A stretch of DNA of 64,000 nt from the human T2T-CHM13v2.0 reference genome, Homo sapiens. Below, in pieces: positions 32,876 through 58,820 of the stretch. The DNA is taken from assembly GCF_009914755.1 (NCBI RefSeq), contig NC_060929.1. One strand, written 5' to 3'. Within the stretch, counting starts at the first letter, position 1. Every line of letters starts with the position of its first letter. Under the pieces are notes generated by a model. It did no database searches. It was given only the letters and a program-made list of their open reading frames with translations, and had not been told where the DNA came from. Position numbers and translations under genes: made by a program.

Positions 32876-35800
32876 ACAATGGTCATTTTACCCCTCTGCT
32901 TCTCAACCCCACAGCTGCTCTGCTGTACTCTTTGAGGGCTCTTGAGCGAGTCTTCATGTCCCTGAGACTTATTTTCCTCATCTTTAATTTGAAACTAACA
33001 AGCTACCTCATAGGGTTGCTGTGAGAACCACATGAGATCATTAATGCATGATAAGATATTGTAAAGTATTATACGAATATTCATTAAATGCTCACCTTTC
33101 TTGTATATAATTGGTATTCACTAAGGCTGTAAATAAGTTTCATAGCCAGTTAAGTATTAAGATAAACCTAACCTGGAACAATTTTTTTTTTGGTTGCTTG
33201 TTTTGTTTTTTGCTTTCATTTGCTAGGAGCTGAAACGAAGATTAAAATGTCATTGGCTTTTTAGAGAGTCTAGATTAGTGTGTCTTTGAATGAGGGATAT
33301 ACTTAAAATCACCTGAGGATCGTTTACAGCTACAGATGCTGGGGCCACCTGACACAGTCTCTCTGGGGGTGATTCTGCTCTGGAGAACCTCTGGTCTGGA
33401 TATACCTTTATTGTGACATTGATTTGTATTGTTTTGCTCTACTGACAGGCCTTTTCCAATCCATACAAGCTGAACTTGCTTCCTAATGTTTGTCTAGGCC
33501 TTACATGGATAGTAAGGAAGCTTAGGAGACATGTACACAAGGCAGCCCACTTGTAGGAAACTGCTTCAGGTGAGGACATCATTCACCAGTGGATCACCGA
33601 GCACCGTGACAGCACCCTCAGTCCACGTCTGCAGATTAAGAGCTGAACTCTCACAGAGAAAGTGGAAGTAGAGAAAGGGTTAATTCAAACTGCTAGAAAA
33701 GCTAAAAGTAAATTTTAAAATGCTGAGCTGCCCATATTCATGCTAGGATGAGAGCCGGCTTAAATGCTTGCTGGGCATTTTGGTATTTACCACTTAGCAT
33801 GTTTTCAACTTCTGTGAGGGATTTTCCCCCCAATCTCCCTAATGTAAACACAGATTTCTCAGCAAGTCATTTCTCAAGCCATGTCATTTCTAGTGTAAAA
33901 TAAATTATAATAATGTGTCATCTGAATGGTGTTCTTGTCTGCAAACATTAGTTATCCTTTGCTAACAGATTCTGAGATGAGAGTCTATCAGTTTGGAGCC
34001 AATGTTTAGTTTTTTTTAAAAAAAGTTAAAAATACAACTTTTTCTCTGATCAACAAAGACCTAAAAATTCATCAGTGGCAGAAAAAAGTTCCAAGGAGCT
34101 CCTGTAGACTGGGGAGGCCTTTCTTCCCAGATAGATCCATCTCCTCAAGCAGCTTGATTTCTTTCTAGAATTTTTTTCACTTAAAAAACTTCTAATTTTT
34201 GGTTGATAACAATTTCCATTTTTATAAATGCAGTTATGCTAACAGAATGTTATCCTGACAGTTATTAAACATTAGAAGATATTTGGTTTTGTTGAAGTAA
34301 CTGTTCTTTCTCGGCAATATGAGGATTTTTTCTCCCTGCTTCCTCAAATAATGTACAACATCTATCAGAAATAAGGCTGGGTAAAGTCGCTTCCAGCTCA
34401 CCTCCTAAATTCTGCTTCTGTGTGACCTTGGAAAAATTTCTTCACCTCTGTGGTCCTCAGTTTCTTTATTTGTAAAATAGGGAAATTCAGCTATGTGTCT
34501 TTTGCGACAACCGTGAATTTTTAGGTCTGTGAAATAGAAGTCCAGAGATCTAAACTGTGAGGCTGGTTAACTGCTAGCTGTGTGACTTGGGCCAATTTTC
34601 TTATTTCCTTCTTAAACTATTTCTGAAAAATAAAGCCCACAGTATCTATGCTGCTTACCTGACAAGGGCATAGAGAAGATCAAAATGATACATAAAACTG
34701 AATGTGCTTTAACCAAGGCAGTGAGACATGGAGTGAGGGGTGACAGTGGATAATGACCTGCTCCTTCAGCGACACTAGCATCCCTACTCCTCTCCACCTC
34801 ATTGTATGTCTGAGCCCTCCCCAGTGCCAAGCGCTCTCTGATCTGGGGAGTCTTTTCCTTCACACCCTTAGCTGACTGTTGCTTATGCTGGTGCCCACCT
34901 GGAAGTGCTTCCTTCCCCACAGGTCTACCCAATTCCCACCCTGGTGTTGGTGATTCACTGTCACAAAGCCACCTCTGACCACCACAGACCCCAATCAGTG
35001 CTCCCTTCATTACTCACCATCCTTAGTCACTATGAGCTTTTAGCTGCCTCTCTTCCGCTCTAATTTCTCCCCAACTTGATAAGTATTAATTAAGTCATTT
35101 CAGGTGTTGGCCACTGTCCTTGATTTGCTGTGTTGCAGCATACACAGAAGAATGTCTGTGTGTGCCACCTAAGTAGAAAGGCTCTTGGGTTGGGAATTTG
35201 AGAGGTGGGAAAACTCTTTGAGGGACCAGTGGAGGGAGCAGTGAGGGGAGCAGAGGCTGTGTTGCTCAGCAGGTACTAGCCTACGAGCTAGAGGTTAAAA
35301 AAACAAAATTCCCCTTCCCCCCAACAAAGGCTTATTAAAATCAAGAGAAAAAAGGCCAGAACTGGGTTTTTGCATGTATTTCTCCTATGATAGGTATAGT
35401 GGTTTTTATTCATACTCCCAAAATATTAGGAAATAGAGCTCTGCAATGTCAAAATCAGCTCTTACATAATCCAGAGATATTCCAGTGAGGTTTTTTTAGG
35501 GTTAAAATTTAAGAATGAGAATATGAAAATATTCACTTAAGCAGATTTCCTCTTACATACTGAATCCTAGGCCAGGTGCCACAGATAGCAAATGGGGAGA
35601 CATAAGAATGCCATAGTCCAGTGGAGAGGACACACAAGAGGAAGCTTCAGGAACAGTAGGCTGCATGCTGTGGGCAAGCACATGCCAAGGAAGGCTTTGC
35701 AGAAGAGGAATGTGAGTGGAGTCTCGAAAACCTTATGACTTAGCCAGGTCAAGAGTGAAGGAAGAATCTTGAAGGTGCTTGTAGGGAAGTGGTGAAGAAT

Positions 35801-36272
35801 CAAGCTGGCTAGAGCAGGACTGGGGCCAGCTCGGGAAGAGTCTTTACTGTCACACTGAGAATTTGTATTTGGCCCGAAAACCACAGCCACTGCTGGGATT
35901 CAAATAGAAAAGTTAAAGTGATCACATTTGCGTTTAAGAAAGAACCTGTATTTTTAAATGGCTGCTGCATATAACTAATCATCCATACACTTTGTCAGGT
36001 TTCGTTTTGTTTTGTTTTTACTGCAGTGTCTTAGCCACAGGATTTAGAAGGTTGAGGAGCACAGCAGGGGCTGAGATTGTGCCAAAGACACTTCAGTTTT
36101 TACCTAGGGTCTTCCAAAACAAAACCTGCCAGTGTCCTGAAAAGCCTTGAATTCTGACTACTGAGTTACCTGGGGCAAGTCACTGCACCTCTCTGGGCCT
36201 CTGTTTTCTGATATATTAACATAAGAAAGTGTATTTGATTGAGTAAAATCAATTTATTGTTTTGTAACAAGC

Positions 36273-36576
36273 TTTTTTTTTTTTTTTTTTTGAAATAAGG
36301 TCTTACTCTGTTGCCTAGGCTGGAGTGCAATGGCTTGATCTTGACTCACTCCAGCCTGACCTCCTGGGCTCAAGGGATCCTCTCATTGCAGTCTCCTGAG
36401 TAGCTAGGACTACAGGCGCATGCCACCACGCCTGGTTAATTTTGCTTATTTTTTGTAGAGATGAGGTCTCACTATGTTGCCCAGACTGTACTTGAACCCC
36501 TAGGCTCAAGAGATCCTCCTATCTCAGCCTCCCAAAGTACTGGGATTACACAGGTGTGAGCCGCTATGCCCAGCCA
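36273..36576 (-). mobile_element. Alu (J family)
   Basis: Dimeric Alu on -, J-type diagnostic sequence. Confidence 0.93.
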
Positions 36577-36679
36577 GTTTTTTTTTTTTTTTAATGAAAT
36601 AGAATACATAAAAAAGAAAATATCAAAGTGCACTACACATAGTAAGGGCATTATTGTTTTGTGAAACTTTGGTTTCAAC

Positions 36680-36812
36680 TATATGTTTTATATATATATT
36701 TATATATATATATATACACACACATATTTTATATATATACACACACATATATTTTATATATATATGAAATCTGTGTGTGTGTGTGTCCACACACGCACAC
36801 ATGCACGTGTGC
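36680..36812. repeat. (TA)n/(CA)n/(TG)n low-complexity microsatellite
   Basis: Directly visible. Confidence 0.9.
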
Positions 36813-38332
36813 ACTGGGTTGTAACATAGACTGTATTTCTAGTGCCAGAAAATAGAAATCTGAAAACTGATGGACAAATAAGCTTCCTTCCTATTCTAAG
36901 ACTTGATTCTCCTTATGCTGCTGACCAGTAAGTTGCTGAAGGCTATTCTATTAATAGAAGGGTATAGGAAGTACTTAACAATTATTGTTTCTGCGGCACT
37001 TCATGTGCACAAAGGTGTTTGAAGCTACTCCTCTGGATTTTTACAGGGCTTCTCTATGGAAGCATTTTCACATTTTTATTCCTAAATCTGGTAGTTCTTT
37101 ACAGTAATCCTGTGATCTCAAGCCCTTGCTTTAACTTTTGTATTGTTAGTAGTGACATCTAGTGGTTCTGTTGCAAGTATCTTGCATTCTAGACCATTGG
37201 AGCTGAAAGTGATTTTAGTGACCACCAGGTCTCATTTTGTAAATTATTAAAAATAAACTGAAAACTCACATGTATTCCTACATTCAAATCAACTCTATAT
37301 AATAATAAATAAAACCTATAGCTGTGTAATGCTTTCTTGGATTACTTTGAAGCTTTTCAAATACCCAGAAGTCACTGTTGGTTATAACCATGAGGCAGAA
37401 ATTTAACAAAGCATGCCCTGATAAATTAAAAGGAAATCATAGTTCAGTATAGCTACAGCCTTTGGTGCATTGTTATTTACAGGTACATGCCAGAACCTCA
37501 GGCTTTCGCATGGTGCCTGGTGTTTGGTAGCACTCACTAAATCTTTGTTGAATGTTTGAATATGTGGGTGATCACGAAGCCCTGGAGAAGAATCACAGAA
37601 GATGTGGGACTTGAAGGACAGAGAATTTGATAAGAGGCTAGAAAGCTAAGCTTTTAAGTTAGGGGCCATGGAAGGCCAAAAAGGGAACCATGAGTAGGAC
37701 CCAACAGGGCACCTTTCAAGGTTTTAACAGAGAAAGTTGACTATGTGTAGTTGTTGGAGGACTCATTTGGAAGTGGTAAATTGGATGGATTAGAAGGAAG
37801 AGAAACTGGATAGAGGCCAAGAAGCTAATGTAGTGGTGAAGTGATGAATTTCTAAGTTAGGAAGGTGACAGAGTAAAGAGAAAGAAATCAGTGTCAGAGA
37901 CATTTTGAGAACCAGAACTTGATGTGAAGAGAATGAGAAGACACTTGTTATGACTTGGTTATGGCTTACATTCTATACTGGGAGTCCCTGTCCAGGCCTG
38001 GACCGTCTTCCTTGGTCTCTGTTCTGCAGGTATCAGGGATTGAACTTGCTTTCTTCTTTCAAGAAGTGCCACCCACCCTATCCTGTGAGCAGATTTCTTT
38101 CTCCCGACCAGCAGCAGAGTGAGATGTAGTCTCCTCGTGCTGTCCTTCAGTAGCTTCAAAGAAACAGTCCCCAGGCCCTTTCCTGCTTATCCATAGGGAA
38201 ATGGCTAAGTAAAATGTTGTACTATGTAGCAGTTAAGGGGAATGAATTCAATCTCCATGTATCAAAATGGGCACATCTCAAGAAACATTACTGAGTTAAA
38301 ACAGAAAACAAATAGTAGATGTTAACTATGAG

Positions 38333-38703
38333 CTGTGTTTGAAAGTGTCCCCCCAAAAAGCATGTATGTGTTGGAAAGCTAATCACTGTTCTAACAGTTA
38401 TTAAGAGGTGGGACATTTAAGAGATGATTAGGCCATGAGGACTCTGCCTTTCTGAATGAAATAATGCCATTGTTGCAGGAGTGGTTCCTTTCAAAAGGAT
38501 GGGTTTGGCACCCTCTTGCTTACTCTCTCTCACCCATGTGATGCCTTCTACCATGTTATGAAGCAGTAAAAAAGGCCTCACCAGATGCAACCCCTCGATC
38601 TTGGACTTCCCAGCCTCTAGAGCTGTGAGCCAATAAAGTTCTGTTCATTTTAAATTACCCAGTCTGTAGTGTTCCATTATAGCAGCACAAAATAGACTAA
38701 GAA
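38333..38703 (+). mobile_element. MST-family MaLR solo LTR
   Basis: 'tcttggacttcccagcctctagagctgtgagccaataaag...ttatagcagcacaaaatagactaaga'. Confidence 0.85.
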
Positions 38704-39426
38704 GTCACTATGCATGCAGCTTGATACTGTTTATATTTTAAAATGCACTAATACCATGTATTTTCTATAGGTACATATACTGCAAGTGTATGAAAAATAT
38801 AAAAAGTGATCTAGAAGGAAGGACACCAAACTTGTAAAAAAGGTGATCCAAGACTTCTTTGATCACTCTTTGCAGGTATAGAGTGGGAACTTGGTTTGGA
38901 AGTAATCAAAGAAGACTTTGGCTCTTTTTGTAATGCTAGACTTAATCTATCCATAGAATGTAAAACTAGAAATTCCTTTTTAAAAAAAGATTTGAGTCCT
39001 CATAGATAATTTGGGAAACACAGAAGAATTTGAAGGAGAATATTTAAAAATCACTGAAGTGTATATCATCTAGAATAACTGCTTTTAAATTTTTTATGTA
39101 TTTCCTTGTGCTAGTTTAAACATATTTAATTAGGAGCATCCTGTATATGGTTTTACATCCTGCTTTTTTCCACTTAACAATATATCTGGAACATTTTCTC
39201 ATGTCATTTAATGTTCTTTGAAAATACTATTTTAAATGACTAGCTAGGATTTCTTCTATTCCAAAATGTACCAAATAATTATCCTATTGTTTGAGTTTTG
39301 GTCTTTTCTAATTCCTCACTGTTTATTTAACATACATTCATTTCAGCACTTTTTCGTGTCAGGAACTGTTCTAGGAATATAGTGGTCAGTAGGGCAGACA
39401 AAGCCCCTACCCTCAAAGAGCTTTCA

Positions 39427-39811
<385 letters not shown>

Positions 39812-40912
39812 TTAATGGAATTAATGGATCAAAGGATATAGGATCATGTCACTAAATTGTTCCCCAGTAAGGATATAGCAATTTACATTCCCAGCAGCAG
39901 TCTGTGTTTTATCATTTTCTTAAATCTTTGAAAATTATTTTACTTTGCTTTAATCACTGAATTAAACATTTTTCTCTTGTCTTGCTAAGATTTCGTGGAT
40001 CCTCAGCTTCATTTCTTCTTAATATGTTATATTTTTCTTAGCATGTTAAATTTCATTTTCTCACCTTCTTCTTGTGACTTCATTGCCCCTACATGTCCAT
40101 TGTGCTCCTATAAGAGCAGATTGTCCATGTTCTGGTTCAGTTTAACCAGAGAATATGCAGTTAAACAATTGGAATATGTATGTAATTTTAAAAAAATATT
40201 ATGGAAAATTTCAAATATATGCAAAAATAGTACAATTAACCTTCACATACCTATAAATTGGAATCAACAATTACCAAGATTTTGCCATATTTGTTTCACT
40301 TAACCCTTTTTTTCTTACTGTGCTCAAATACTTTTAAGCAGTAACAGACTTTATGTCATTTGTTTTTACAGGTGCATACTGAACATTTTTATTTGATTTA
40401 TTCCTTCCATTCTTAGATGTTAAAAACATCTTTGGGTTTTTGTCCTCTGCTTTTATGCCTGAGGGTGAGGCTTTGTGCCCTCTTTCTAATTTTTACAAAT
40501 AGCATGGGAACTTTTCCCTAAAATGACCATAATTAGGGCAGCCATGAAATAAAAGCAGAATGTAAAATGTGCATTTTGCAGGTTCTGCAGACTGGATCAT
40601 CTACAGAACTGGACAACATTGGGAACACTCATAAACCATGTCAAACCACAGTCCACTTCTCTCAGTTGTTCTCAACTGTGATTAAAATGGAAAATTATGT
40701 AATATGTGACTAAATCCTCATTGTTGTACAGGTTGAAATAGTAGCTGGCTTCTTGTGTTAGGAACTCATATACACAAATATACACACATAATTGGAAAAT
40801 TCTGCATATAGTTTCAGGCGTTCCTAGTCCCTCTAAAATCCACCTATGGGCCAAACCCTATCCATCTATGGGAATCCTGGCAAATAAATTCCACTCACAA
40901 TGGCTTTCTTTC

Positions 40913-40915
<3 letters not shown>

Positions 40916-40948
<33 letters not shown>
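40916..40948. repeat. (CA)n microsatellite
   Basis: Directly visible. Confidence 0.95.
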
Positions 40949-40950
<2 letters not shown>

Positions 40951-41529
40951 GGAGGAAGATGAGTATGTTGATAAGGAGAAAAGTATTTAATTATAAACAT
41001 ATAAGAAAATGTGTAAAATACAGAACAAACAAAATCAACTATTGTATACTATAATTAAGATCCTGGAGAAATACTTGGAACCTATTAGGAACTTGTGGGG
41101 GAAAAGTTGTCATACTACCTGCAAACACACACGAACAGAGTACCTAAAGTTGTCAAACTGTATAGAAAAAAGAATCTTATTATAAGCTGGATAAATTCAT
41201 AAAGCTATTGGAGAAAAAAGATATGACAAAATCTATTTAATACCAGTTTCCAAAGCAAGAAATGAACAAGACACGTTTTAAAAAGTAACAGTTCTCTCTA
41301 CTGTTCTCAGCTGTGATTGAAATGAAAAATTATTTAAAGCATGTCTTACTTTGCCCATTATTGTACAGATTTAAACATTAGCTGGTTGCTGAAAGAGGTA
41401 AGTAAGCATTATAATACATCTGTTAGCATATACACTTTGAAATTTGGGTTTGCTCTGTATGTCCTACACTTTTAGCACAGCCAAGCAATGTAGCCCCTTG
41501 TTCTATTTATTTTTTTCTTTTTCTTTCTT

Positions 41530-41833
41530 TCTTTTTTTTTTTTTTTTTTTTGGAGAGGGAGTCTCACTCTGTTACCCAGGCTGGAGTGCAGTGGTGCGAT
41601 CTCGGCTGACCACACCCTCTGCCTCCTGGGTTCAAGTGATTCTCCCACCTGAGCCTCCCAGGTAGCTGGGACTACAGGTGTGCGCCACCACGCCCAGCTA
41701 ATTTTTTGTATTTTTAGTAGAGACAGGGTTTTGCCATGTTGGCCAGGCTGGTCTCAAACTCCTGACCTCAGGTGATCCGCCCGCCTCAGCCTCCGAAAGT
41801 GCTGGGATTACAAGCGTGAGCCACTGTGCCCGG
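41530..41833 (-). mobile_element. Alu (Sx-like)
   Basis: Dimeric Alu on -. Confidence 0.95.
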
Positions 41834-41870
41834 ATTTCTATTTCTAATTAACTATAATAAAAGAGTTTTA

Positions 41871-42163
<293 letters not shown>

Positions 42164-42930
42164 TTAGAAGGCTAGATTTAAAAATTTCTCCCACACTGTG
42201 ACTAGATTAGAGAACAGAATTCATGCCAACAATAACTTATTACCACAAATAAGCAGAGTAAAAGGAGCTGGTACTTCTGTGGCTAGATCTGACTAGTGAC
42301 CTGGGGACTTTGATTTCCTCCTTACCCTCCTTACCATCAGAATTGCTGTTTGCAAGCTTCAGGTCAGCTGGAAAGCAGAGTGCATTAAGGAAGGAATTTG
42401 TGATGGTGCTCATCGCACACATCTGAGAGCTGTGTGTGAGTGGCTCCCTTGTTTTTGAAGATACACATCATATATTAGAGGCTTAAGTGACCATCTGAAT
42501 GAGGTGGCGACTGGGCATGTGCATATTTGAAAATATTAGTTATTTGTCACTCATGGTTCCCTTCAAATGTGTCACTCTAAAAAACTATTTTCTTCTATGA
42601 GACAATTTATGCTTTAAAACATTTAATTGTTAAATGTTTTAATGGTTTGCTCTACACCTTCTGTGGTGACATTAGTGTGACAATAAGCTATAAAAATCCA
42701 CTTCTCTTCCTCCGGTACTAACAAACATAATATCACTTTACCAAACAATAAGGACAAGATTTGTGTTAGAAACGAAGACTGCTCAGTATAACCAGCAAAG
42801 ACAGTCCCCCAACTACAGTAGCATGAGAATGTGAGTTAATGCTTAAATAATCCACTGACATAGATTTTATAGGTTAAAATAAAGATTACATAAGTTACTG
42901 TTAGTGAACATTTTATTGTAATATGGTAAT

Positions 42931-43070
42931 TTATTATCGTAGTCTCTTTTCTTGGCTTTATGCAAAGCCAATAAAGAAAAACGCTAGCTACTTTGACAAC
43001 CTTCCAACAGATTCCAGGAATATTATCCACAGCGTGACCATTATGACCAATCCTACAACTAGACATTTTC
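42931..43070 (-). pseudogene. Decayed unprocessed duplicate of RPS23 exon 4
   Basis: Aligns by eye codon for codon to 53894-54040 (GHAVDNIPGICWKVVKVASV vs [20 protein letters not shown]); keeps acceptor TTTCATTCCAG|GAAAATG vs TTTTATTCCAG|GAAAATG; indels -7, -1, +2, -1. Confidence 0.9.
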
Positions 43071-45058
43071 CTGGAATGAAATACAGGAATCCAATACACA
43101 TACAGATACACATTCGAATTTTTATAGCTGTCATATTAGAACTGTGTCTCTCAGTGCTATCAAAAAATAACATGAAAAGGCCCACATTTATCTGAGGTGT
43201 TGTGTGTTTAGACCTTCAAAATTTTTTTTCAGAACATCAGTAACTGGAGTGTTTCAATATTTTCATACAAACACACAGAAAATTTACTCCCCTTTGCAAA
43301 ACAGAAAACAAAAACTCTTACTAAATACCCGGATAAATCTGTGCCTGAGTTTACTAAGTAGCTACCTGTAAGGCAGTGTTTATCGTTTTGCGATGGGGTG
43401 TTTCTGACAGGAACAATTCCATTTGGAGAATAGACTATTGTTTTGACTTGAGCTGTGCCAATTACTTGGGCAAATTTATTTATAAAATACTTAACAGCTG
43501 CCTTATTTGGGCTTCCAACTTCTAAGATGAGAGCAGTAATAACCACAAATGGAGAAAACAGGGGGTAGCTACATAAGAACTACCTGACAGATTTCTCATG
43601 GATACCCTCAAGATGGTTTCCCAGGGGAATTCTGATGTCACTGGGTTTGGGAACCACAGAACTAAGTGATCTCCTGATTCTTTTTGCTATAACAATTTCT
43701 GATTGGTTTGGGCTTTGCTAGGCAAATAAAGAGAATACAGATTAAATAACAGACTAAATTAACTTACCCATTTGTAAATTTTATATATACATATATATAA
43801 ATACATTACTTTTTATTTATAAATAATTTAAGGCACACAATAAGTTGCAACAATAGAATAGTTTGTGTATACCCTTCATCCAGCTTTCCCAAATGATAGT
43901 ATCTTTCATAACCAGAGTATATTTTCAAAAGTAGGAAATTGACATTAGTCCAAAACTATTAACTACAGAATTTACTCACTGACCAATTTTTACATGTTTT
44001 TATTGTGTGTATAGTACTATGAAATTCCACTGCAAGTATTGATTTCCATAAATATCACCAAGATAAAGACACAGAAGTGTTTCATTCCCACAAAGAAACT
44101 CCCTCGTACGATCCTTTTATTGTCAGACTCTGCCCCCATTCTGAATCCCTAGTGATCACTGGTCACTTCTCCATTGCTATAATTTTGTCATTTCAAGAGT
44201 GTTATATAAATGAATCCATACCAGATACAACTTTTTGAGATAGGCTTCTGGTATCCAGCATACTGCCCTAGAAATTCATAGAAGTTGTTTTATGTAACAA
44301 TCTGGCTGAATAGTGTATCATTTATGGATATACCACAGTGTATATATTGGCCCATTGAAGGGTATTTAGGTTGTTTCTATTTCTTGGCTGTCCAAATAAA
44401 GTTGCCATGAATATTTATGTACAGGTTTTTGTGTGGACACTTATTTTCATTGCTGTATTTCAGTCCTGTACCCGGGACTACAATTTCTGGCTCATGTTGT
44501 TAAGTATCACTTTTTCAGAGTGACTGTACTATTTTTCCACCAACAATGCATGAGAGATGCAGTTGCCCTCCTTTCTCACCAGTACTTGGTATTCTCAGCA
44601 TCTTTAGCCAGGTTATAGTGATAACTTGTTGTGGTTTTAATTTGCATTTGCCTGATGGCTAATGATTTGATCATCTTTTCATGTGCTTATTTGCCATCTC
44701 TTTTGTGAAGAGACGTATATTTGCCCATTTTGTAATGGGATTGTGTTTTCTCACTTTTTGTTTAGAGAATTCTGTTTTAGATGTAAGTCCTTTATTGGAT
44801 AAGTGTTTTGCAAATATTTTCTCCCAATCTGTGGTTTGTCTTGTCATCCTATTAACAGGATTTTTTATTTTTTTATTTTTTTTATTTTTTAAGACAGGGT
44901 CTCACTGTGTTGCTCAAGCTGAATTGCAGTGGCACAATCAGAGGTCACTGCAGCCTCAAACCCTTGGGCTCAAGCGATCCTCTGACCCTCTCAAGTACCT
45001 GGGACTAGAGGTGCACACCACCATGCCAGGCGAATTTAAATTTTTTTTGTAGAGATAG

Positions 45059-45534
45059 TGTAGCAGGATGAGCCGCAGACAAAACCTCCCAGACACCGAG
45101 TTGTAGAAGGAAGGGCTTTATTCAGCTGGGAGCATCGGCAAGCTACTGCCTTAAAATCTGAGCTCCTCGAGTGCACAATTTCTGTTCCTTTTAAGGGCTC
45201 ACAACACTAAAGATTTCATATGAAAGGGTCGTGATTGATTGAGCAATCTAGGGGCTACGTGACCGGGGTTTCATGCACTGGTAGTCAGAGTGAAACAGAA
45301 CAGGGAGTTTCACAATGTTCTTTTATACAATGCCTGGAATCTATGGATAACATTGGGTTCGAAGTCATGAGTTGATTTTTAACTACTAGGTTTAGGCCAG
45401 GAAGGCCCAGGGCTGATTTTAGGCCTGGTGCCGGGCTGCCTGTCTTTGATTTCACTTCCTTGTTTTTTCTCTTATAACAAATACTGAGTATAAAACAATA
45501 TAAAACAGTATGAGAGGGTCTCTCTCTTCCCTCA
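45059..45534 (-). mobile_element. 3' LTR (476 bp), LTR2B-like
   Basis: TGAGGGAAGAGAGAGACCCTCTC...CCTGCTACA; preceded by PPT AAAGGGGGGAAA at 45535-45546. Confidence 0.93.
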
Positions 45535-45559
45535 TTTCCCCCCTTTGAGACTCTCACTT

Positions 45560-47614
45560 TTTATTAGTGGGAGTTCTCACTCTTATTTTTGCTACTTATG
45601 TCTTTTCGTGCAATAGATTGATAGTGATTTTTATAGTACACTTGTGCTGAAGCATTTTGGTGAACTAAGGTAGTGATGAAGCTTTTTATCATTTGAAGAA
45701 GTACAGGTAGCAAACAAGGGAGCAGTAAGTAGGTTTCTATTACTATTGTAACTCCTATTGTAAGAGTTTTAAATCCTCTTAGTGCTGGGAACTACCTTCT
45801 AAACATGGCTTTAGGGTTGAATCTGTGCTACACTTGTATGGACATATGTGCCAGTTTTGTCATATTTCTAACTATGCCTTTTAACTACTTGCCTTTGATT
45901 ATCTATGTGTAGACAGTAATTAGTAAGGTTAAATTTCTTATAGACCATTATTTCAGCTGCTAGCAAGTAGTCAAGAGCTAATTTATTTTGATAGATAGCA
46001 TTTCTTATCTGAGTTTTTTGCTGGGCCAGAATAGTCAAGGCTTGACCAGTTTTATTAGTGATGATTTTTAAAACAGCTTGCAACCGTATGATTTGGTTGA
46101 GCATGTAAATGGGGGTCCAGTATCCCCATGATCTGTCTTGTGTCTAAGTGGCAGGCCTATAGTATTGTATAATTTTTTTTAGGGGGCCATTTATCATCTT
46201 TTTAATTACCTATGGCTATGCTTCGTTTTCCACGGGAAGCACAGACAGGGAAGCCTAGGAGTTCTCCTGTTTTTATGGGCAGTAGGAAGAAAGATGGTTT
46301 AATGGTGCCAATTACACAACTACCTGTCCACTGATTAGGCAGCTTAGCATGGGCTCTATGTCTACATATCCAGTATTACCTGGTGGGGGCAGTCCAGTCC
46401 CGGTGGAATTCTGGGTAGGCCTAGACAGTCTGCAACCTTGGAAATTTACTGAACGGATCTCTTTCTGTGTGGTTTGAACTCCACCGTGTAACTGTTTTTG
46501 TGGTACTATTATACAGTTTTTGTCCTAGGCAACTAAGTCATCCTACAGAATGAGTGAATTTTTTCCTTTTTCTAGCTATGCAATATTGTCCAATAATTAA
46601 GACTTTTAGAACCTAGAAATGATCAGGGTGATTCTTTTGGGCTGGGAATTCATCAGGAACTGGGTCTGTAGGCACTAATTCTTGGGCTTTTTATGGCCAT
46701 TGATCTCTCATTACAGTTTTTCTACAAAAATAACATGAAGTGACATCTAGAGACTGGGCTACCTGCTCGGCTAATTGCAAAAACAAATTTTTAGTTTTTC
46801 CTGGAATCCCAGGTACTGGCACATTTAGTTCATCATAGAAAATCTGAAAGACTGGTTCTGAAGAGCGTTCTTGAACCTCTCCTTTTATTAGGATGCTTAC
46901 ACTAGGATCTAGTCCTTTTCCATCAATGCCTAATGTTACATATTTTCCTTTATTCCACTTTGGGTCTGAGGGGTTTGTAATTATCAATTCTAAAAGGTTG
47001 CAGCTCCCACTCGTGCAGGAGGGGCTGACTTTTCCTTTTTGGAGCTAAACAGGATCTTTCTTATCTTCTTTCTAAGTAGCCTAAATGACACAAGACCAGT
47101 ATTGACATATCTCACATAAATATGATTCTTGACAGATGTACTTATTTTATGCTGTGTAACTTTTTTCCTAATCTAGAGAACTGCATCCTATCCTATGCTG
47201 TTTACTATTAATAGCGGCACAGGCATCAAATTTTAAGGTTACATTTTTGGGGACCTTTCTTTCTTCTGTTCTAGCTATTATTTTACTTGTGTCCCTTAGA
47301 GAACGACCAGTTCTTAGTCTTACTTCAAAGACTGTGATCATGGGAAGTTCAAAGGGGTCATAGCACACATTGGGCTGGTCACTTCCTGGATTACATACTT
47401 TGTACTGGGTGTTATTATACAAATAGGTTCCTTTTGGAGTTCCTAGGCATTCATAATAACTATAAAATAATAGGACTGTAGCAATCTTTTGTCCTACCTC
47501 AGTGACTTGATGTAAATACTGGGAACAGCCTTCAGTCTGAGAAAGGTCAGTTGAAGTCCTTACTGTACAACTCTAAATTTTAAGGAAAATGAGTCCCGCG
47601 ATGCATTTCCTCAT
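45560..47614 (-). pseudogene. HERV-E-like env, disrupted
   Basis: ATG at 47614 reads MRKCIAGLIFLKI*SCTVRTSTDL (HERV-E env N-term); TM region [14 protein letters not shown] (ISU); many stops and frameshifts. Confidence 0.88.
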
Positions 47615-47879
47615 GCTTCGGCCGTGTGTGGACCAGTCAGCTTCCGGGTGTGACTGGGGCAGGGCTTGTCGTCTTCTTCAGAGTCACTTTGCAGGGGTTG
47701 GCGAAGCTGCTTCCATCCACGTACAGCTCCCAGTCTACTGATGTTTAAGGGTGGTCTTGGAGGTTGGGCCTACTAGAATAAACTAAGTCCAACACCTCTA
47801 CACAGTTTATGTTTAACTGGGCTCTCTGATACCAGGAGTAAGATGGCAGGGTTAGGGTGTTGCAAACTTCAATCGTTAT

Positions 47880-48155
47880 GTGGGGATTTTCACAGAGCAA
47901 GCTTTGGTATCTAGTTAGTCTAGCATTCATTAGCTAATGGTGTCCTTTGGTATTTATTAAAATCACCACAGCATGGGGGGACTTTAGGTTTTGTCTAAGA
48001 GTTAGCTTATCTGCTTCTTGTGCTAACAGGGCCGTTGCTACCAGGGCCCTTGGACATGGGGGCCAGCCTTTGGAAACCCTGTCTAGTTGTTTTGAGAGAT
48101 AGGCCACTGGCTTTGGCCAGGGCCCCAAAGTCTGGGTTAAAACTCCAACTGCCAT
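47880..48155 (-). pseudogene. pol fragment (RT connection/RNase H tether)
   Basis: AVGVLTQTLGPWPKPVAYLSKQLD..SKGWPPC.RALVATALL, gammaretroviral-like motif. Confidence 0.88.
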
Positions 48156-48254
48156 TTTTTTTTTCTTTCTGACACATAGAGTGTAAAGAGTTTTGTCAGG
48201 TCAGGTAGCCTCAGGGCTGGGACCGACATGAGTTTTTCTTTTTAACTCATGAAA

Positions 48255-48620
48255 AGCTCATTGCTGTTGGTTGTAATAGATGTAGTTTATCTAATCTACA
48301 TTTTTATTGACTGTCATCTACTAAAATATTGACTTGAATCCTCTATTTGATTTCAAGCTTTAAATTGATCTGGTATTCCTTGCGGGGCTCTAATTGCATC
48401 TAAATAGATGTGAGAGTTGAAAGACCTATAAGGGGCTTCTCTCGCTTTATGATGTCTTATTTTTTGTTTTTCCTCTGGTTGATGAAATGCCAGGGTGAAA
48501 GGGATAGCCAAATGGACTAAAGCACAAGTGCCACTCTAGTTATTAGGCAGAGTGCCTAGTAAAGGTCCACCACAATACTACCATACATCTGCTAGGGGAC
48601 GAACAAGGGCTGACTGATTG
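48255..48620 (-). pseudogene. Second env fragment, HERV-I/HERV-IP10-like
   Basis: ADVW*YCGGPLLGTLPNN*SGTCALVHLAIPFTLAFHQP ... YLDAI..PQGIPDQFKA ... F**MTVNKNVD*INYIYYNQQ. Confidence 0.75.
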
Positions 48621-50189
48621 ATAAGCTCTTGAAAATTCTTAAGCTCACTGCATCCCTTCAGGTCTCTAAGGAATGCTAAGTCTCTTCCTTGCTGTGACAG
48701 ACACGAAGTGAACTTAGTGTTGGGAGATGGAAGCTGGATGGCCCTCAGGGGCTGACCCGCAGGGACTTCGGGATATAGCAGAGAGAGCTTGGCATGACTT
48801 TTTACTCCAGGCTATAGAGTCCCGGAAAAGAGCTACCATGCAGCCTATGCCTGGTCGACTAGAGGACCACCTTAGTGGAAGGGGGACAATCAGGGCCTCT
48901 GGCCTGCCATGTGCACAAGCATAACAATTGCTTTTGTTTAACGTGCAGATGGAATATTTGATCTATTTCAACCAGGCATTTGCATCTTGGTATGCTGTCT
49001 TAATTGCCAAAGTTTGTTTTAAGTCTTTAGCTTCTATGATCCTTTAGTAAAATGAATGTTTCCTGTAGCACCTATTTTTATTAGTTTTTAGACCAAAGAA
49101 AGCTAAACACCATTTTATATTTAATAATGCTTCTTGTATGATTTTTATACCACATAAGTTAAATTTTACCTTTATATTAGTGTTAATGTTAAACTTAATT
49201 TTAATAAAACCTTGTAGACATATTTATCCAATTTTTTATGTTTGACCATGTAAGATTTTATAGACTCTTTTTAACTTTTTATAATTTTTGTTAAAGAACA
49301 GGTTGATCCTTTAAGAAAAACCTGTTGCATTTTTAATGTCTAGTTCACAGAAAAACTGGATGACACCTTTTTAACTTTAGCTAATATGTTTACACACAGA
49401 ATTTTCTTTACAATTAATGTTTTAAAACTTGCTTAAACTTTTAAAACAATTTTTTTAACTTTTTAATGTAGGTAAAAATCCACATTTTTATGCCCTTTTA
49501 TAATCTTTTTTACCAAAGGTATATTTTACTTTTCTTATACACCTTGCACATAAACTGTTTTTTTAAAATAGTACTCAGGAGGCCTTATTACTTTTAAATT
49601 ATACAACTTTTTTGCATAAATACTTTTTATAACTTTTTCTTTCACGACTTTTGCAGACAATTTTTCAACATGTCTTAACTTTCTGACTTATTACATTTTT
49701 TTTTTAAACAACCAGTTAATTTATTTCAGGACAAGAATTTACCATGTAACACTCTTTTTACATAAATTCTGCCTCTCCCCGTTTTTTTCCTTTTTTTTTT
49801 TTCTTTTTGAAGATAACCATTCCTTTTTTTTTTTTTTAAAGCGAACTTTCTTTATGTCTTTGAACTAGATTGTCTAAGGCCACAAGATTAGAAGTTACCA
49901 TAATACATGTTACACTGTTAACTTTTAGCAAACTTCACTTTTGTTGAAAACCTTGTCAGTTTGGGATTTCAATTATCCTTTGCTATTAATAAGACTTTGT
50001 TTAGTCTAAATTAACTTAGAATTGGTATAGATGGTCTCTTTTTCTCTCTGCTGGTCTTTCCTTGCCTCTGCCAGCTGCTTATGCTGCTGTTCTCTTAACT
50101 ACTGTGGTGGGGAAGGGGGTCTAAAACCAGCTGTAACTGTCTATGTATGGAAACTGGTCTGGGTGCCTTGGCTTACCAGTTACCTTGTG

Positions 50190-50384
50190 TCATACCTTTG
50201 AAACAAGAGACCTGTCCAGGCTTCCTTCTGATGGCCAACCTACTTCTAATGCTGGCCAGTCTATTTCACACAAAGTTCTAAGTTTTCCTGGTGTCATAGT
50301 AACACTGTAATCTCCCTTAAATCCTTTCTTGAAATTTTTCAAGATAGTTCCTAGTGGGGTGGGCTTACTTTGCACCTGACCTAT
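50190..50384 (-). pseudogene. gag matrix N-terminus, start mutated (ATG to ATA) and truncated
   Basis: IGQVQSKPTPLGTILKNFKKGF..LRTLCEIDWPALEVGWPSEGSLD, HERV-E-type MA. Confidence 0.85.
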
Positions 50385-50575
50385 GTTTGTTTGTTTTTTT
50401 TCCTGAGACAAAATACCACGCTCACACCACACACACACACCAGAAGACAAAGAACGGGTAAAGAGGGCACACACACACTGTTACCGTTTATACCAAACCA
50501 AAATCACGAAATTCAAAATCCGAGTACCAAAAAATTCAAGCCAAGTCAAAACCAAAACCACAGTATCCAGCAATT

Positions 50576-50801
50576 CAAGTCAAGTCAAAACCAGAACAAA
50601 AGTGCCAATGCAGGCACACCGTGGGTGATCAGGCCACGCTTCCACTCAGATGGAGTGGGGCAAGTTCCAAAGACTAGTTTTACCAAGTCAAGCCAAGTCA
50701 AAACCAGAACAAAAGTGCCAATACAGGCACACCATGGGTGATCAGGCCACGCTTCCACTCAGATGGAGTGGGGCAAGTTCCAAAAACTAGTCTTACCAAG
50801 T
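50576..50801. repeat. 113-bp tandem duplication in ERV leader
   Basis: 50576-50688 and 50689-50801 differ at about 5 positions. Confidence 0.93.
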
Positions 50802-51045
50802 TTCAGATGTCTGGACTCCAAGTGCCAGTTCCTTCCCGGTTCCCGGTGTTCAGCCACTGTGTTAATCCTCCGCAGGGGCCTGCTATGTGCTGCTCTGGCA
50901 AGGCGTTCCACCGGGGCAACTGCCTACCCAGGAGCACTCTTTGGATGGCATCACTCAGGCTGGCCGGAGTCCCCCGCAGGGACGCTCCACGGGGCAGGCC
51001 TAAGTTGCCTAAGGGGCTGTCTCAGCCGTCCGTCAGTCACCTCGT

Positions 51046-51063
51046 TTCCTGGTTAGGGAACCA
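51046..51063 (-). other. Primer binding site for tRNA-Glu
   Basis: TGGTTCCCTAACCAGGAA vs TGGTTCCCTGACCGGGAA (16/18, both differences G to A), 5 nt inside the 5' LTR boundary. Confidence 0.88.
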
Positions 51064-51068
51064 AGAAA

Positions 51069-51528
51069 TGTAGCAGGACGAGCCGCAGACAAAACCTCTC
51101 AGAGTTGTAGAAGGAAGGGCTTTATTCAGCTGGGAGCATCGGCAAGCTACAGCCTTAAAATCTGAGCTCCTCAAGTGCACAATTTCTGTCCCTTTTAAGG
51201 GCTCACAACACTAAAGATTTCACATGAAAGGGTCGTGATTGATTGAGCAATCTAGGGGCTATGTGACAGGGGTTTCGTGCACTGGTACAGAACACAACAG
51301 GGAGTTTCACAATTTTTTTATACAATGCTTGGAATCTACGGATAACATCAGGTTCTAAGTCGTAAGTTGATTTTTAACTACTAGGTTTAGGCCAGGCAGG
51401 CCCAGGGCTGGTTTCAGGCCTGGTGCCGGGCTGCCTGTCTTTGATTTCACTTCCTTGTTTTTTTCTTAAAACAGGTACTGAGTATAAAACAATATAAAAC
51501 AATATGAGAAGGTCTCTCTCTTCCCTCA
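51069..51528 (-). mobile_element. 5' LTR (460 bp), LTR2B-like
   Basis: Direct repeat of 45059-45534, roughly 25 substitutions plus indels by eye; AATAAA at 51121-51126 on -. Confidence 0.93.
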
Positions 51529-52139
51529 AGAGTGTATGACTTTGCTGCCCAGGATGATCTTGAACTCCTGGCCTCAAGCTATTAATTTCTTCCCAACTCA
51601 GCCTCCCAAAGTGCTGGGATTACAGGCATGAACCACAACGCCCAGCTTAACAGGATTTTTCAGAGAGAAAAAGTTTTTTAATTTTAATGAAATCCACCAA
51701 TTTATCTATTTTTTCTTTTACGGCATGTGCTTTTGGTGTAATGTCTAAAAACTATACCTACGCCTAGGTTGTAAAGATAGTCTGTTTTCAGTTTTATAGC
51801 TTTCCATTTTACATTTAGATATATGATCCATTTTGAGTTAAGTTTGTATTACATGTAAGGTTGGGGTTCCTTTGTTTTGGTCTTTGACAAATGGAAGTCC
51901 ACAACATTTATTGAAACTCTTCTTCCTCCATTGGTTTTAAGATAAATCCGTTGGCCATACTTCTGAATGTCTATTTATGGATTCCCTATCTTATTTTATT
52001 GATGTGTATTTTTGTCTCTCCTCCATGGATACATGAAGGAAAGGGCCTTGGACACAAGGCAGTGGGGAAAGGGGCTGGGGGGCCACACAGAGAAAGGAGA
52101 AGGCACTAAGATCAGGCTCAGCAGCTTCTGGATCTGAGG

Positions 52140-52500
52140 CGCCGGAGATTATTTATGGGTCAATCTGGCAGCCCCTGGGCCTCAGGTAGGACTGCTTAGC
52201 AGTGAAAAGGGCGTCCTGGGTGCAGCCAACAGGGTACAGCTGCAAGCCATTGTTGAAGGTGTCTTGACGTATCAGAGAAGGCAGGTAACCAGGCCACATC
52301 CCTGGGCGCCCGCGCTGTCCCACTCCCTTCCTGGTGCGCCCCGCCTCGCGGTCACAAGGGCCCCACCGCCCGGGGAGAGCTGCCCACCCCGCGCCTGACG
52401 CCCAGGGCCTGGAATCGCGCTGCAACCGCGGCCTCTTTCCCTGGTTCTGGCCAGGTGAGCGAGGCCTAGCAATCTCTCCCGCATCACAAAGGATTGGGTC
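52140..52500. promoter_or_regulatory. Small CpG-rich island downstream of RPS23
   Basis: Abrupt GC/CpG-rich non-repeat patch with GC-box-like ccccgcc/ccgccc in AT-rich surroundings. Confidence 0.6.
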
Positions 52501-53862: not shown

Positions 53863-53868
53863 TTTATT
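53863..53868 (-). terminator. RPS23 proximal polyadenylation signal AATAAA
   Basis: Hexamer about 26 nt after the stop, followed by a GU/U-rich downstream stretch. Confidence 0.9.
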
Positions 53869-53893
53869 ACTACAGTGTTTTCACCATTAATAT

Positions 53894-54350
<457 letters not shown>

Positions 54351-54521
54351 TTATCTTTTCATATTAACTAGAGAACTAATGAGAAACTGTTTCTATCTTT
54401 TCAATCTAACCTCAAATGGCTGAGCTGAAGTCCTGTGATGTCAACCTAGTTTTCTGCCAGTCTTAATTTCATTAGCACAATGGGGGAAATTTCTAGACCT
54501 TTTACAGTTATAAAAGTAGAC

Positions 54522-54662
54522 TGGAGTGGCAGCGTGGGCCTGTAGTCCCAACTACTTGCGAGGCTGACGTGGGAGGATCTATGCCTAGAACGTCAAGATG
54601 GCCAGCCTGTGTGACAAGGGACCCTATCTCAAAAAAAAAAAAAAAAAAGAAAAAAGAAAAAA
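54522..54662 (+). mobile_element. Alu monomer (FRAM/FAM-like) in RPS23 intron 2
   Basis: Right-arm-like monomer with A tail. Confidence 0.8.
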
Positions 54663-54691
54663 GGTATCTGAGGTAAGAATTAGAAAGTCTG

Positions 54692-54968
54692 GGCCGGACA
54701 CAGTGGCTCACGCCTGTAATTCCAGCACTTTCGGAGGCCGAAGCAGGCATTATCACCTGAGGTCAGGAGTTTGAGACTAGCCTGGTCAACATGGTGAAAC
54801 CCCATCACTACTGAAAATACAAAATATTAGCTGGTGTGGTAGTGGGCGCCTGTAATCCCAGCTACCTGGGAGGCTGAGGCAGGAGAAATGCTTGAACCTG
54901 GGAGGCTAAGGTTGCAGGGAGTCTTGCGCTACTGCACACCAGCCTGGGTGACAGAGCTAGACTGTCTC

Positions 54969-54993
<25 letters not shown>
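54692..54993 (+). mobile_element. Alu (Sx-like) in RPS23 intron 2, antisense to the gene
   Basis: Dimeric Alu; aaagtctg flanks on both sides. Confidence 0.95.
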
Positions 54994-54999
<6 letters not shown>

Positions 55000-55481: not shown

Positions 55482-55649
<168 letters not shown>

Positions 55650-56113: not shown

Positions 56114-56137
56114 CCTGTCGGCGCCACGGGCCTGAGC

Positions 56138-56719: not shown

Positions 56720-58820
<2,101 letters not shown>

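What the first reader, a model, noticed from the sequence alone, without database searches (positions are those of the whole stretch)
42912..43083. Ancient unprocessed duplicate of the RPS23 terminal exon with intact splice acceptor and polyA signals
Seen: 42931-43070 (-) aligns codon for codon with RPS23 exon 4 from the first codon (GAA AAT) to the stop. Homology extends about 12 nt into the intron (TTTCATTCCAG|GAAAATG vs TTTTATTCCAG|GAAAATG), so this is a DNA-level duplication, not a retrocopy. Many differences are synonymous (CTA/TTG, AGA/CGA, GCC/GCT, CAT/CAC, GTT/GTG), and I see no homology deeper in the intron or 3' flank. AATAAA occurs at 42930-42935 and 42912-42917. Four indels now break the frame; spliced to exon 3 it would read ...FIE-ENV*, a 98-aa truncated uS12 ending in a terminal exon, so not an exon-junction NMD target. 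Inference: exon-restricted similarity suggests the copy was once constrained, e.g. as an alternative last exon giving a uS12 C-terminal variant or a regulatory decoy. Part of the synonymous excess is expected from the functional copy alone. I do not recall this being annotated, but cannot check.
Basis: partly seen in the sequence, partly recalled or inferred. Interest (0 to 1): 0.85.

Follow-up and report, generated by a model that had tools for sequence, protein, structure and literature searches.

The report
Dead duplicate of RPS23's last exon
About 11 kb downstream of the human ribosomal protein gene RPS23 lies an old, frame-broken DNA copy of its last coding exon, most likely an inert relic of a small local duplication rather than a working alternative exon.

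Summary
Window 42929-43083 (-) aligns to RPS23 exon 4 plus the last 13 nt of intron 3: 122 of 164 columns (74%), four indels, E 1e-25. Both AATAAA hexamers and the 98-aa ...FIE-ENV* reading check out.

It is a DNA-level copy, not a retrocopy. Every retrocopy that retains upstream sequence carries the exon-3 end there; only this copy carries the intron end with its AG. It lies in the parent's orientation. No copies of exons 1-3 exist in the window.

Best reading (about 0.68): an inert unprocessed "pseudogenic exon", a known class.

The "once constrained" inference is neither shown nor excluded.
- Synonymous share is 14 of 29 changes, against 17 of 40 in the two oldest retrocopies (p 0.81) and 46 of 141 in all ten (p 0.14).
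- Flank homology is absent. My simulations would expect it to survive at the exon's apparent age. That points to an exon-sized duplication, flank loss, or an older, once-constrained copy (about 0.15).

No vertebrate genomes or RNA data were available. A multi-species alignment would decide.

No paper found mentions it, and RefSeq has no row. Low-moderate interest.

The parts
43071..43083 (-). Copy of the last 13 nt of RPS23 intron 3, with pyrimidine tract and AG acceptor
   Evidence: 12 of 13 identical to 54041-54053. Anchored extension score is 11 against the intron end (null fraction 0.0007) and 4 against the exon-3 end (0.025). Pyrimidines at -20..-5 are 12 of 16 in both copy and parent.
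42931..43070 (-). Frame-broken copy of the RPS23 exon 4 coding sequence, from the first codon to the position of the stop
   Evidence: Blastn 74% identity, E 1e-25. Tblastn residues 106-139 at 57%, E 1.3e-5. Four indels: -7, -1, +2, -1. A stop falls after 3 codons when read from exon 3. Nei-Gojobori counts are Sd 14, Nd 15 over 41 codons.
42907..42930 (-). Possible remnant of the short RPS23 3' UTR around the poly(A) signal. Marginal.
   Evidence: Best local alignment of the copy's 3' flank: 19 of 24 to parent 3' UTR positions 30-53 after the stop, which implies a 30-nt deletion. Score 12, null fraction 0.06.
42912..42935 (-). Two AATAAA hexamers (42930-42935 and 42912-42917)
   Evidence: Pattern scan; also readable. 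No evidence that either is used.
53894..54053 (-). Parent: RPS23 exon 4 coding part (53894-54040) and the end of intron 3 (54041-54053)
   Evidence: Hub annotation; sequence; alignment.
45059..51528 (-). Context only: a degraded endogenous retrovirus inserted between parent and copy. It accounts for 6470 of the 10823 nt now separating them.
   Evidence: LTR pair 45059-45534 and 51069-51528 at 91% identity. The LTR is high-copy in the genome: 1280 first-look candidates, with pairs about 5.7-6 kb apart elsewhere. Gag_MA E 1.1e-7 at 50190-50480 (-); weak RT_RNaseH at 47934-48200 (-). Residual spacing is about 4110 nt.
42836..43066 (-). 76-codon ATG-to-stop open frame running out of register through the copy. 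Most likely fortuitous.
   Evidence: Translation. The only database look-alike is P0002, the same 76-aa frame with 2 differences, from one 2076-nt contig.

Best explanation
This is an inert unprocessed pseudogene fragment, a 'pseudogenic exon'.

Origin (inferred): long ago, plausibly around or before the radiation of placental mammals, a small piece of genomic DNA was copied and placed about 4 kb downstream of RPS23 in the same orientation. The piece held the 3' end of intron 3 and exon 4. It was either an exon-sized templated or duplicative insertion, or a larger tandem duplication whose flanks are no longer recognisable.

Fate (inferred): the copy lay beyond the gene's own efficient acceptor and poly(A) site. 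It had no role and decayed. It lost both of the parent's CpG sites, picked up four indels, and acquired an in-frame stop 3 codons in. A retrovirus and a repeat of about 300 nt that matches the window's masked, multi-copy repeats (Alu-like; the name is recalled) later pushed it to 10.8 kb from the parent.

What is shown: homology, retention of the intron-exon junction, disablement, position, and the absence of copies of exons 1-3. The date, the mechanism of duplication and the lack of function are inferred.
For: DNA-level origin:
- The junction is retained at 12 of 13 nt. All retrocopies with upstream sequence show the exon-3 end instead.
- The anchored score favours intron over exon 3, 11 against 4.
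- The 13-mer match is 3 found against 0.24 expected in the window.
- The copy is on the same strand, 10.8 kb from the parent (about 4.1 kb before the ERV and repeat insertions).

Only exon 4 was copied:
- Tblastn of the whole protein finds no second hit for residues 1-105 better than E 0.8.
- Apart from multi-copy repeats of about 300 nt, only the exon copy and the LTR pair link 33000-50900 to 50901-64000 (2 of 51 hits).

Decay:
- Four indels.
- Both parental CGC codons are changed, to CAT and TGT.
- Differences by codon position are 7/9/14.
- pN/pS is 0.37 (bootstrap 0.20-0.71), against 0.46 for the two oldest retrocopies pooled. Fisher p 0.81.

Known class:
- Pseudogenic exons are reported beside 0.4-1.0% of mammalian genes (PMC2718932: abstract and Methods section 14 read).

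No other role found:
- No Rfam family at E<=1 in 42200-44800.
- The flanks 42300-43700 are unique in the genome.
- RefSeq lists no gene or functional element here (hub table).
Against: - Flank homology is missing. Observed flank scores sit at null level: p 0.06, 0.03, 0.39, 0.30; 0.10, 0.10; 0.05.
- My simulations say co-duplicated neutral flanks at d 0.2-0.3 per branch would still align. P(score<=observed) is 0.00-0.06, rising to 0.4-0.7 only at d 0.36-0.40.
- A real two-branch comparison, copy against old retrocopy L019, still aligns: 67% over 124 nt, E 1e-9.
- Under a tandem-duplication model the always-neutral fit is about 11 times less likely than one that allows constraint on codon positions 1 and 2, at the cost of one extra parameter.
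- The copy's synonymous share (14 of 29) is nominally above the retrocopy pool (46 of 141).
- An exon-sized duplication would need breakpoints that fall close to both exon edges by chance.
- The simulations are crude. They use one stand-in ancestor, a simple indel model, and no large-scale turnover.
Confidence: 0.68

Rival explanations
1. Former alternative terminal exon. The duplicate was used for a period, spliced from exon 3, and gave a uS12 with a variant C-terminal third. It was kept under purifying selection while the flanks diverged. It then lost function and has decayed since.
For: - Similarity is restricted to the exon plus 13 nt, while simulated neutral flanks of the exon's apparent age would still align (empirical analogue).
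- The joint fit under a tandem model favours constraint about 11-fold.
- The third-position and synonymous excess is nominal: 14 of 29 changes, codon positions 7/9/14.
- The acceptor AG and pyrimidine tract match the parent's.
- An AATAAA follows the stop.
Against: - The synonymous excess is not significant: p 0.14 against all ten retrocopies and 0.81 against the two oldest, which show the same pattern without any reason for constraint.
- pS of 0.46 is not saturated, as long co-existence would predict.
- Replacements hit invariant-looking positions (G to D, D to N, R to C, F to W in the GDIPGVRF stretch).
- The exon lies beyond the gene's own acceptor and poly(A) sites.
- The one protein search found no uS12 isoform with this C-terminus. 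This is weak evidence, since only 2 candidates were scored.
- DNA-mediated ribosomal protein duplicates are reported as almost never retained: 28 of 14,552 events (PMC4219774, passages).
Confidence: 0.15
2. RNA-mediated origin. The copy is a 5'-truncated cDNA of an unspliced or partly spliced RPS23 transcript, with intron 3 retained (a semi-processed retrocopy). It happened to insert, or was captured during local break repair, just downstream of its own gene.
For: - The detectable homology runs from 13 nt inside intron 3 to about the poly(A) site. These are the limits expected for a truncated cDNA of the terminal exon.
- No flank homology.
- A 5'-truncated old retrocopy that keeps only exon 4 exists elsewhere (L019).
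Against: - Landing within a few kb of the parent in the same orientation is very improbable for random retrotransposition. By my estimate it is about 1e-6 per insertion, and only about 13 distinct retrocopy loci were seen.
- It needs an intron-retaining template from an efficiently spliced gene.
- No poly(A) tract or target-site duplication is recognisable. After the signal the sequence resembles the parent's genomic continuation as much as a tail.
Confidence: 0.05
3. Currently functional non-coding element. The pseudo-exon acts today as a rarely used decoy terminal exon for read-through RPS23 transcripts, giving a 98-aa truncated product or an unstable RNA, or as part of an unannotated lncRNA.
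For: - Intact AG acceptor with 12 of 16 pyrimidines, and two AATAAA hexamers within 40 nt of the end of the copy.
- RPS23 transcription does read through its proximal poly(A) site for at least 2.7 kb, according to the RefSeq long 3' UTR that ends in the retroviral LTR (hub table).
Against: - No annotation (hub table) and no Rfam family.
- The sequence shows neutral-type decay, including indels.
- Between the gene and the copy lies a provirus whose LTR supplies a poly(A) site that the annotated long isoform already uses.
- No expression data could be consulted.
Confidence: 0.05
4. Last surviving piece of an ancient whole-gene tandem duplicate of RPS23. The copies of exons 1-3 were later deleted.
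For: Same orientation and close spacing. Retained intron-exon junction.
Against: - No trace of exons 1-3 anywhere in the window outside the gene, although they would be as well preserved as exon 4.
- No homology upstream of -13 (p 0.39 and 0.30; 0.10).
- It requires a deletion ending within about 20 nt of the acceptor.
Confidence: 0.05

Closest known systems
Pseudogenic exons (decaying duplicated exons in the milieu of their own gene; DeLima Morais & Harrison 2009, PMC2718932)
   Same: A single exon copied at DNA level beside its parent gene and disabled by frameshifts and a premature stop. Its substitution pattern is that of a decaying sequence. It lies after the real stop codon, so it is not a nonsense-mediated-decay trigger.
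   Different: That survey searched only the gene plus 5000 nt on each side (Methods section 14). This copy lies 10.8 kb beyond the coding end, so it would have been missed under the older, short gene model. The parent is a ribosomal protein gene. I could not open the paper's supplementary lists, so I cannot say whether RPS23 is in them.
Duplicated (unprocessed) pseudogenes as defined by annotation pipelines
   Same: The alignment to the parent spans an intron-exon junction. One pipeline uses this criterion to call a pseudogene 'duplicated' rather than processed (PMC1810550, abstract seen in the listing).
   Different: Only one exon of four is present, about 33% of the coding sequence. Pipelines commonly class such pieces as 'fragments' (length under 70% of the parent; PMC2687790 passages).
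RPS23 processed pseudogenes
   Same: Same parent exon, with similar divergence to the oldest ones (L019, L021: about 69-74% identity).
   Different: Where upstream sequence is retained, the retrocopies carry exon 3 fused to exon 4. They lie on other chromosomes or, for one on chromosome 5 (L014), tens of Mb from RPS23. The copy carries intron sequence and sits beside the parent.
Tandem duplicated exon substitution / alternative last exons
   Same: A homologous exon downstream in the same orientation, with its own acceptor and poly(A) hexamers.
   Different: The frame is broken, it is not annotated, it lies outside the gene past its poly(A) sites, and there is no evidence of use. RPS23 does not occur in the main text of the survey of human events (PMC9741552: 0 occurrences in the listing).

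Membership tests
Unprocessed pseudogene fragment / pseudogenic exon | Significant homology to an exon of a nearby functional parent gene | tested here: met
   74% over 164 columns, E 1e-25. Tblastn E 1.3e-5. The parent lies 10.8 kb away on the same strand.
Unprocessed pseudogene fragment / pseudogenic exon | Alignment crosses an intron-exon junction (genomic, not cDNA, origin) | tested here: met
   12 of 13 intron bases. Anchored score is 11 against the intron (null 0.0007) and 4 against exon 3 (null 0.025). 3 matches found against 0.24 expected. The stretch is only 13 nt.
Unprocessed pseudogene fragment / pseudogenic exon | Disabling frameshifts or premature stops | tested here: met
   Four indels (-7, -1, +2, -1). 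A stop falls after 3 codons when read from exon 3.
Unprocessed pseudogene fragment / pseudogenic exon | Substitution pattern of an unconstrained sequence | tested here: inconclusive
   pN/pS 0.37 (bootstrap 0.20-0.71). Retrocopy controls are 0.46 (two oldest) and 0.67 (all ten). Fisher p 0.81 and 0.14. Only 41 codons.
Processed pseudogene (retrocopy) | Introns absent: exon 3 sequence abuts exon 4 | tested here: not met
   The copy has the intron end. The retrocopies with upstream sequence have the exon-3 end.
Processed pseudogene (retrocopy) | Poly(A) tract and target-site duplications | tested here: inconclusive
   No clear A-tract after the signal. At this divergence neither feature would be expected to survive. 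No formal search for target-site duplications was run.
Alternative terminal exon / tandem duplicated exon substitution | Open reading frame in register with the upstream exon | tested here: not met
   Read from exon 3 it gives ENV then a stop, for a 98-aa product.
Alternative terminal exon / tandem duplicated exon substitution | Transcript evidence for the exon 3 to copy junction and for 3' ends | not testable with these tools
   No RNA-seq, EST or GENCODE data available. RefSeq lists one RPS23 transcript without it (hub table).
Alternative terminal exon / tandem duplicated exon substitution | Conservation of an intact orthologous exon in other species | not testable with these tools
   No vertebrate genomes are held. 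The protein search returned only P0002, the same out-of-register frame from a near-identical genome.

The most novel reading that the evidence does not exclude
The copy is the fossil of a second, once-functional terminal exon of RPS23. An early mammalian or older ancestor would have made two uS12 isoforms differing in the C-terminal third. The distal exon stayed under selection long enough for all flanking similarity to vanish, and died only around the placental radiation. If so, an intact version may still exist in some vertebrate lineage. That would be a rare case of exon-level paralogy in a core ribosomal protein.
Probability: 0.13. Interest if true: 0.6.

Novelty: new member of a known kind. 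Interest (0 to 1): 0.25.

Why it matters
If it is inert, its value is mainly for annotation.
- It is an unlisted unprocessed RPS23 pseudogene fragment that can attract mis-mapped reads or spurious splice predictions. It sits in a region (ATG10-RPS23-ATP6AP1L) studied as a breast-cancer risk locus (PMC11438911, passages).
- It is one of the rare DNA-mediated duplicates of a ribosomal protein gene. One survey counted 28 of 14,552 duplication events across eight mammals (PMC4219774, passages).

If the minority reading were right, it would document a lost isoform of a universally conserved decoding-centre protein. That would bear on the debate about ribosome heterogeneity.

Tried and rejected
1. 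Retrocopy origin. Rejected on the junction test and on position. I first noted that the exon-3 end resembles the intron-3 end, so BLAST lets retrocopy hits run about 10 nt 'into the intron'. The direct comparison still favours the intron, 11 against 4.

2. Copies of exons 1-3, or larger collinear homology. None found.

3. Flank homology. Local and gap-tolerant alignments of the 5' and 3' flanks against random window segments gave p 0.03-0.39. Nothing is convincing. Two marginal 3' matches overlap in the parent and cannot both be right.

4. Origin from, or donation to, a particular retrocopy. The copy is 67-75% identical to every one of them and shares none of their indels.
   - L017 shares three adjacent changes with the copy near the C-terminal codons. 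I treat this as coincidence, because its 3' UTR follows the parent.
   - L019 shares 8 states with the copy. Half are synonymous and may be ancestral parent states.

5. Polarising differences with retrocopies. At most sites the retrocopies agree with the parent. At positions 36 and 112 the two oldest agree with the copy, which suggests a few synonymous changes on the parent lineage. There are too few sites for a formal test.

6. Protein database search for a uS12 isoform carrying this exon. One hit came from 2 candidates, and it is the same locus from a near-identical genome. This is weak evidence either way.

7. Rfam: nothing.

8. Literature.
   - 'RPS23' with 'exon duplication': 0 papers.
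   - 'RPS23' with 'pseudogenic exon': 0 papers.
   - 'RPS23' with 'unprocessed pseudogene': 5 papers. In the two I opened (passages), RPS23 appears only as the mouse Rps23r1 retrogene. The other three I saw only in the listing.
   - 'RPS23' with alternative or duplicated-exon phrases: none of the 15 listed papers, out of 58 matching, holds RPS23.
   - 'RPS23' with ATG10, intergenic and pseudogene: 4 papers, 3 listed. I opened one, and it does not mention the copy.

9. Not available.
   - The 2002 catalogue of human ribosomal protein pseudogenes is not held.
These are the places where the copy might already be listed.

10. One search stopped on a script error after its first row. It was rerun.
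Full report
**What is there.** On the minus strand, window 42929-43083 aligns with 53892-54053, which is the coding part of RPS23 exon 4 together with the last 13 nt of intron 3. 122 of 164 columns are identical (74%), 11 columns are gaps, and E is 1e-25. The next best local match between the two regions has E 0.34.

- There are four indels, of -7, -1, +2 and -1 nt.
- AATAAA lies at 42930-42935 and 42912-42917 on the minus strand.
- Exons 1-3 contain exactly 95 codons, so splicing to 43070 would read E-N-V-stop and give 98 residues.
- In the whole T2T genome the 155-nt copy matches only itself, the parent, and four RPS23 retrocopy loci at 74-75%. None of those four covers the first 20 query bases.

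**DNA-level, not a retrocopy.** Searching with the parent exon gave 16 matches. Besides the parent and the copy, these resolve into about a dozen distinct retrocopy loci, from 99% down to about 70% identity. Wherever upstream sequence is retained, exons 2, 3 and 4 are fused and the bases before exon 4 are the exon-3 end. The copy instead has TATTTCATTCCAG, 12 of 13 identical to the intron end.

One caveat first. The exon-3 end and the intron-3 end resemble each other, which is why BLAST lets some retrocopy hits run about 10 nt past the junction. I therefore compared the two directly. The anchored extension score of the copy's upstream flank is 11 against the intron (0.0007 of 3000 random window segments reach it) and 4 against exon 3 (0.025). 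The intron 13-mer with at most 1 mismatch occurs 3 times in the window, against 0.24 expected. Together with the position beside the parent, in the same orientation, this settles a genomic origin for practical purposes.

Only exon 4 was copied, or only exon 4 survives:
- The full protein finds no second match for residues 1-105 better than E 0.8.
- Of 51 hits between 33000-50900 and 50901-64000, 49 are multi-copy repeats of about 300 nt that fall on the masked stretches (Alu-like; the name is recalled). The other two are this copy and a pair of LTRs.

**Surroundings.** The LTR pair is 45059-45534 and 51069-51528, at 91% identity.
- It belongs to a high-copy family, with 1280 first-look candidates of which 40 were scored. 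Pairs 5.7-6 kb apart occur elsewhere in the genome.
- It brackets remnants of a gamma-type matrix domain (E 1.1e-7) and a weak RNase H match.
- It is therefore a degraded provirus that inserted between parent and copy.

Without the provirus and the adjoining repeat, the copy would lie about 4.1 kb past the RPS23 stop instead of 10.8 kb. The copy's own flanks, 42300-43700, are unique in the genome as far as that search can see. They hold no Rfam family.

**Was the copy ever constrained?** I used the retrocopies as controls that decay from the same parent.

| Sequence compared with the parent | Synonymous changes | Non-synonymous changes | pN/pS |
|---|---|---|---|
| Copy (41 codons) | 14 | 15 | 0.37 (bootstrap 0.20-0.71) |
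| Two oldest retrocopies, L019 and L021, pooled | 17 | 23 | 0.46 |
| All ten retrocopies pooled | 46 | 95 | 0.67 |

For the copy, pS is 0.46, pN is 0.17, and the differences by codon position are 7/9/14. Fisher tests of the copy give p 0.81 against the two oldest retrocopies and p 0.14 against all ten. The coding pattern therefore gives no significant sign of past selection. With 41 codons, though, it could not exclude constraint over a sizeable part of the copy's life. The replacements include radical changes in the conserved GDIPGVRF stretch, and both parental CGC codons have decayed in the CpG manner.

**The oddity that remains.** I expected the exon-restricted similarity to follow simply from the parent exon being conserved while the flanks drift on both sides. 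The controls say this is not quite enough.

I evolved a stand-in flank along two branches, with substitutions and with indels scaled to the four indels seen in the copy.
- 150 nt of flank remains detectable in 93-99% of runs at d 0.19-0.24 per branch.
- 736 nt remains detectable at d 0.2-0.3. Homology disappears only at about 0.36-0.40 and beyond.
- A real two-branch comparison agrees. The copy still aligns with the old retrocopy L019 at 67% over 124 nt, E 1e-9.

The observed flank scores are at null level. In one search the four comparisons gave p 0.06, 0.03, 0.39 and 0.30. One search gave p 0.10 and 0.10, and one search gave p 0.05.

Under a tandem-duplication model the best always-neutral joint likelihood is 0.0010, at d 0.36. 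A model that frees codon positions 1 and 2 reaches 0.0117, at d 0.45. That is about 11-fold, for one extra parameter. Three things could explain this:
- The duplicated piece was little longer than the exon. This requires breakpoints near both exon edges by luck.
- The flanks were lost or replaced.
- The copy is about twice as old as it looks because it was constrained for a time.

The simulations are crude, with one ancestor, simple indels and no transposon turnover. I give them modest weight. Combined with a low prior that a distal duplicate of a ribosomal protein's last exon was ever used, I put the once-functional reading at about 0.15 and inert readings together at about 0.75.

**Age (inference).** The copy's own-branch divergence is about 0.19 at non-synonymous sites and about 0.3 over all sites. 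That is comparable to the oldest recognisable RPS23 retrocopies. By recalled human-lineage neutral distances, this points to roughly the time of the placental radiation or earlier. I could not calibrate it here.

**Cross-species and expression evidence.** None could be obtained. No vertebrate genomes, RNA-seq or GENCODE tables are held. It scored 2 candidates and returned one 76-aa predicted protein, P0002. P0002 is the same out-of-register frame with 2 differences. It is the same locus in a near-identical genome, and it says nothing about function.

**Comparison with what is known.** Single decaying exon duplicates beside their parent genes are a described class. These 'pseudogenic exons' are associated with 0.4-1.0% of genes in four mammals (PMC2718932: abstract, passages and Methods section 14 read). 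That survey searched only 5 kb beyond each gene, so it would have missed this one under the older, short gene model.

Crossing an intron-exon junction is the criterion one pipeline uses for 'duplicated' pseudogenes (PMC1810550, abstract in the listing). DNA-mediated duplicates of ribosomal protein genes are reported to be rare, at 28 of 14,552 events (PMC4219774, passages).

I found no paper that mentions this copy (searches; passages). An existing listing therefore cannot be excluded.

**Verdict.** It is most likely an inert pseudogenic exon, a new member of a known kind, of low-to-moderate interest. It survives as a minority hypothesis because flank homology is unexpectedly absent, and a multi-species alignment would settle it quickly.

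Noticed in passing
window 45059-51528 (-); RPS23 3' end at 51105: A degraded gamma-type endogenous retrovirus lies directly downstream of RPS23. Its LTRs, 45059-45534 and 51069-51528, are 91% identical, and it holds a Gag_MA remnant. The RefSeq long 3' UTR of RPS23 ends at 51105, 16 nt after an AATAAA (51121-51126) inside the upstream LTR. The long isoform therefore appears to use the LTR's poly(A) signal.
   Followed up: partly
L019 (G000:C23:103499378-103499519 region): An old RPS23 retrocopy, about 69% identical, that keeps only exon 4 and about 15 nt of the exon-3 end. Its homology to the parent runs about 36 nt past the usual poly(A) site, to window 53816. This suggests a slightly more distal cleavage site in the source transcript.
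   Followed up: partly
L017 / L006 (G000:C4:69874083-69874278): This retrocopy, 83% identical to the parent, shares three neighbouring changes with the exon copy in the last four codons, although its 3' UTR follows the parent. Probably coincidence. Not tested formally.
   Followed up: no
L011, L012, L013 (G000:C1 at about 160.80, 160.88 and 160.96 Mb): One RPS23 retrocopy is present three times about 80 kb apart, at 87-88% identity to the parent. All three have the same insertion of about 1.1 kb between the exon 3 and exon 4 parts. The retrocopy was evidently carried along by a later segmental triplication.
   Followed up: no
alignment, exon 4 positions 6 and 99: Four (position 6) and seven (position 99) of the middle-aged retrocopies carry C where the present gene, the youngest retrocopy and the exon copy carry T. 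This points to synonymous changes on the RPS23 lineage, or to a distinct source allele, during primate evolution.
   Followed up: no
window 42836-43066 (-): A 76-codon ATG-to-stop frame runs out of register through the copy. An almost identical 76-aa predicted protein (P0002, 2 differences) exists in the protein collection, from one 2076-nt contig. Most likely a gene-caller artefact on near-identical DNA.
   Followed up: partly
window 6602-6614 (-): An unrelated 12-of-13 match to the intron-3 end motif. It shows the chance background for that motif.
   Followed up: no
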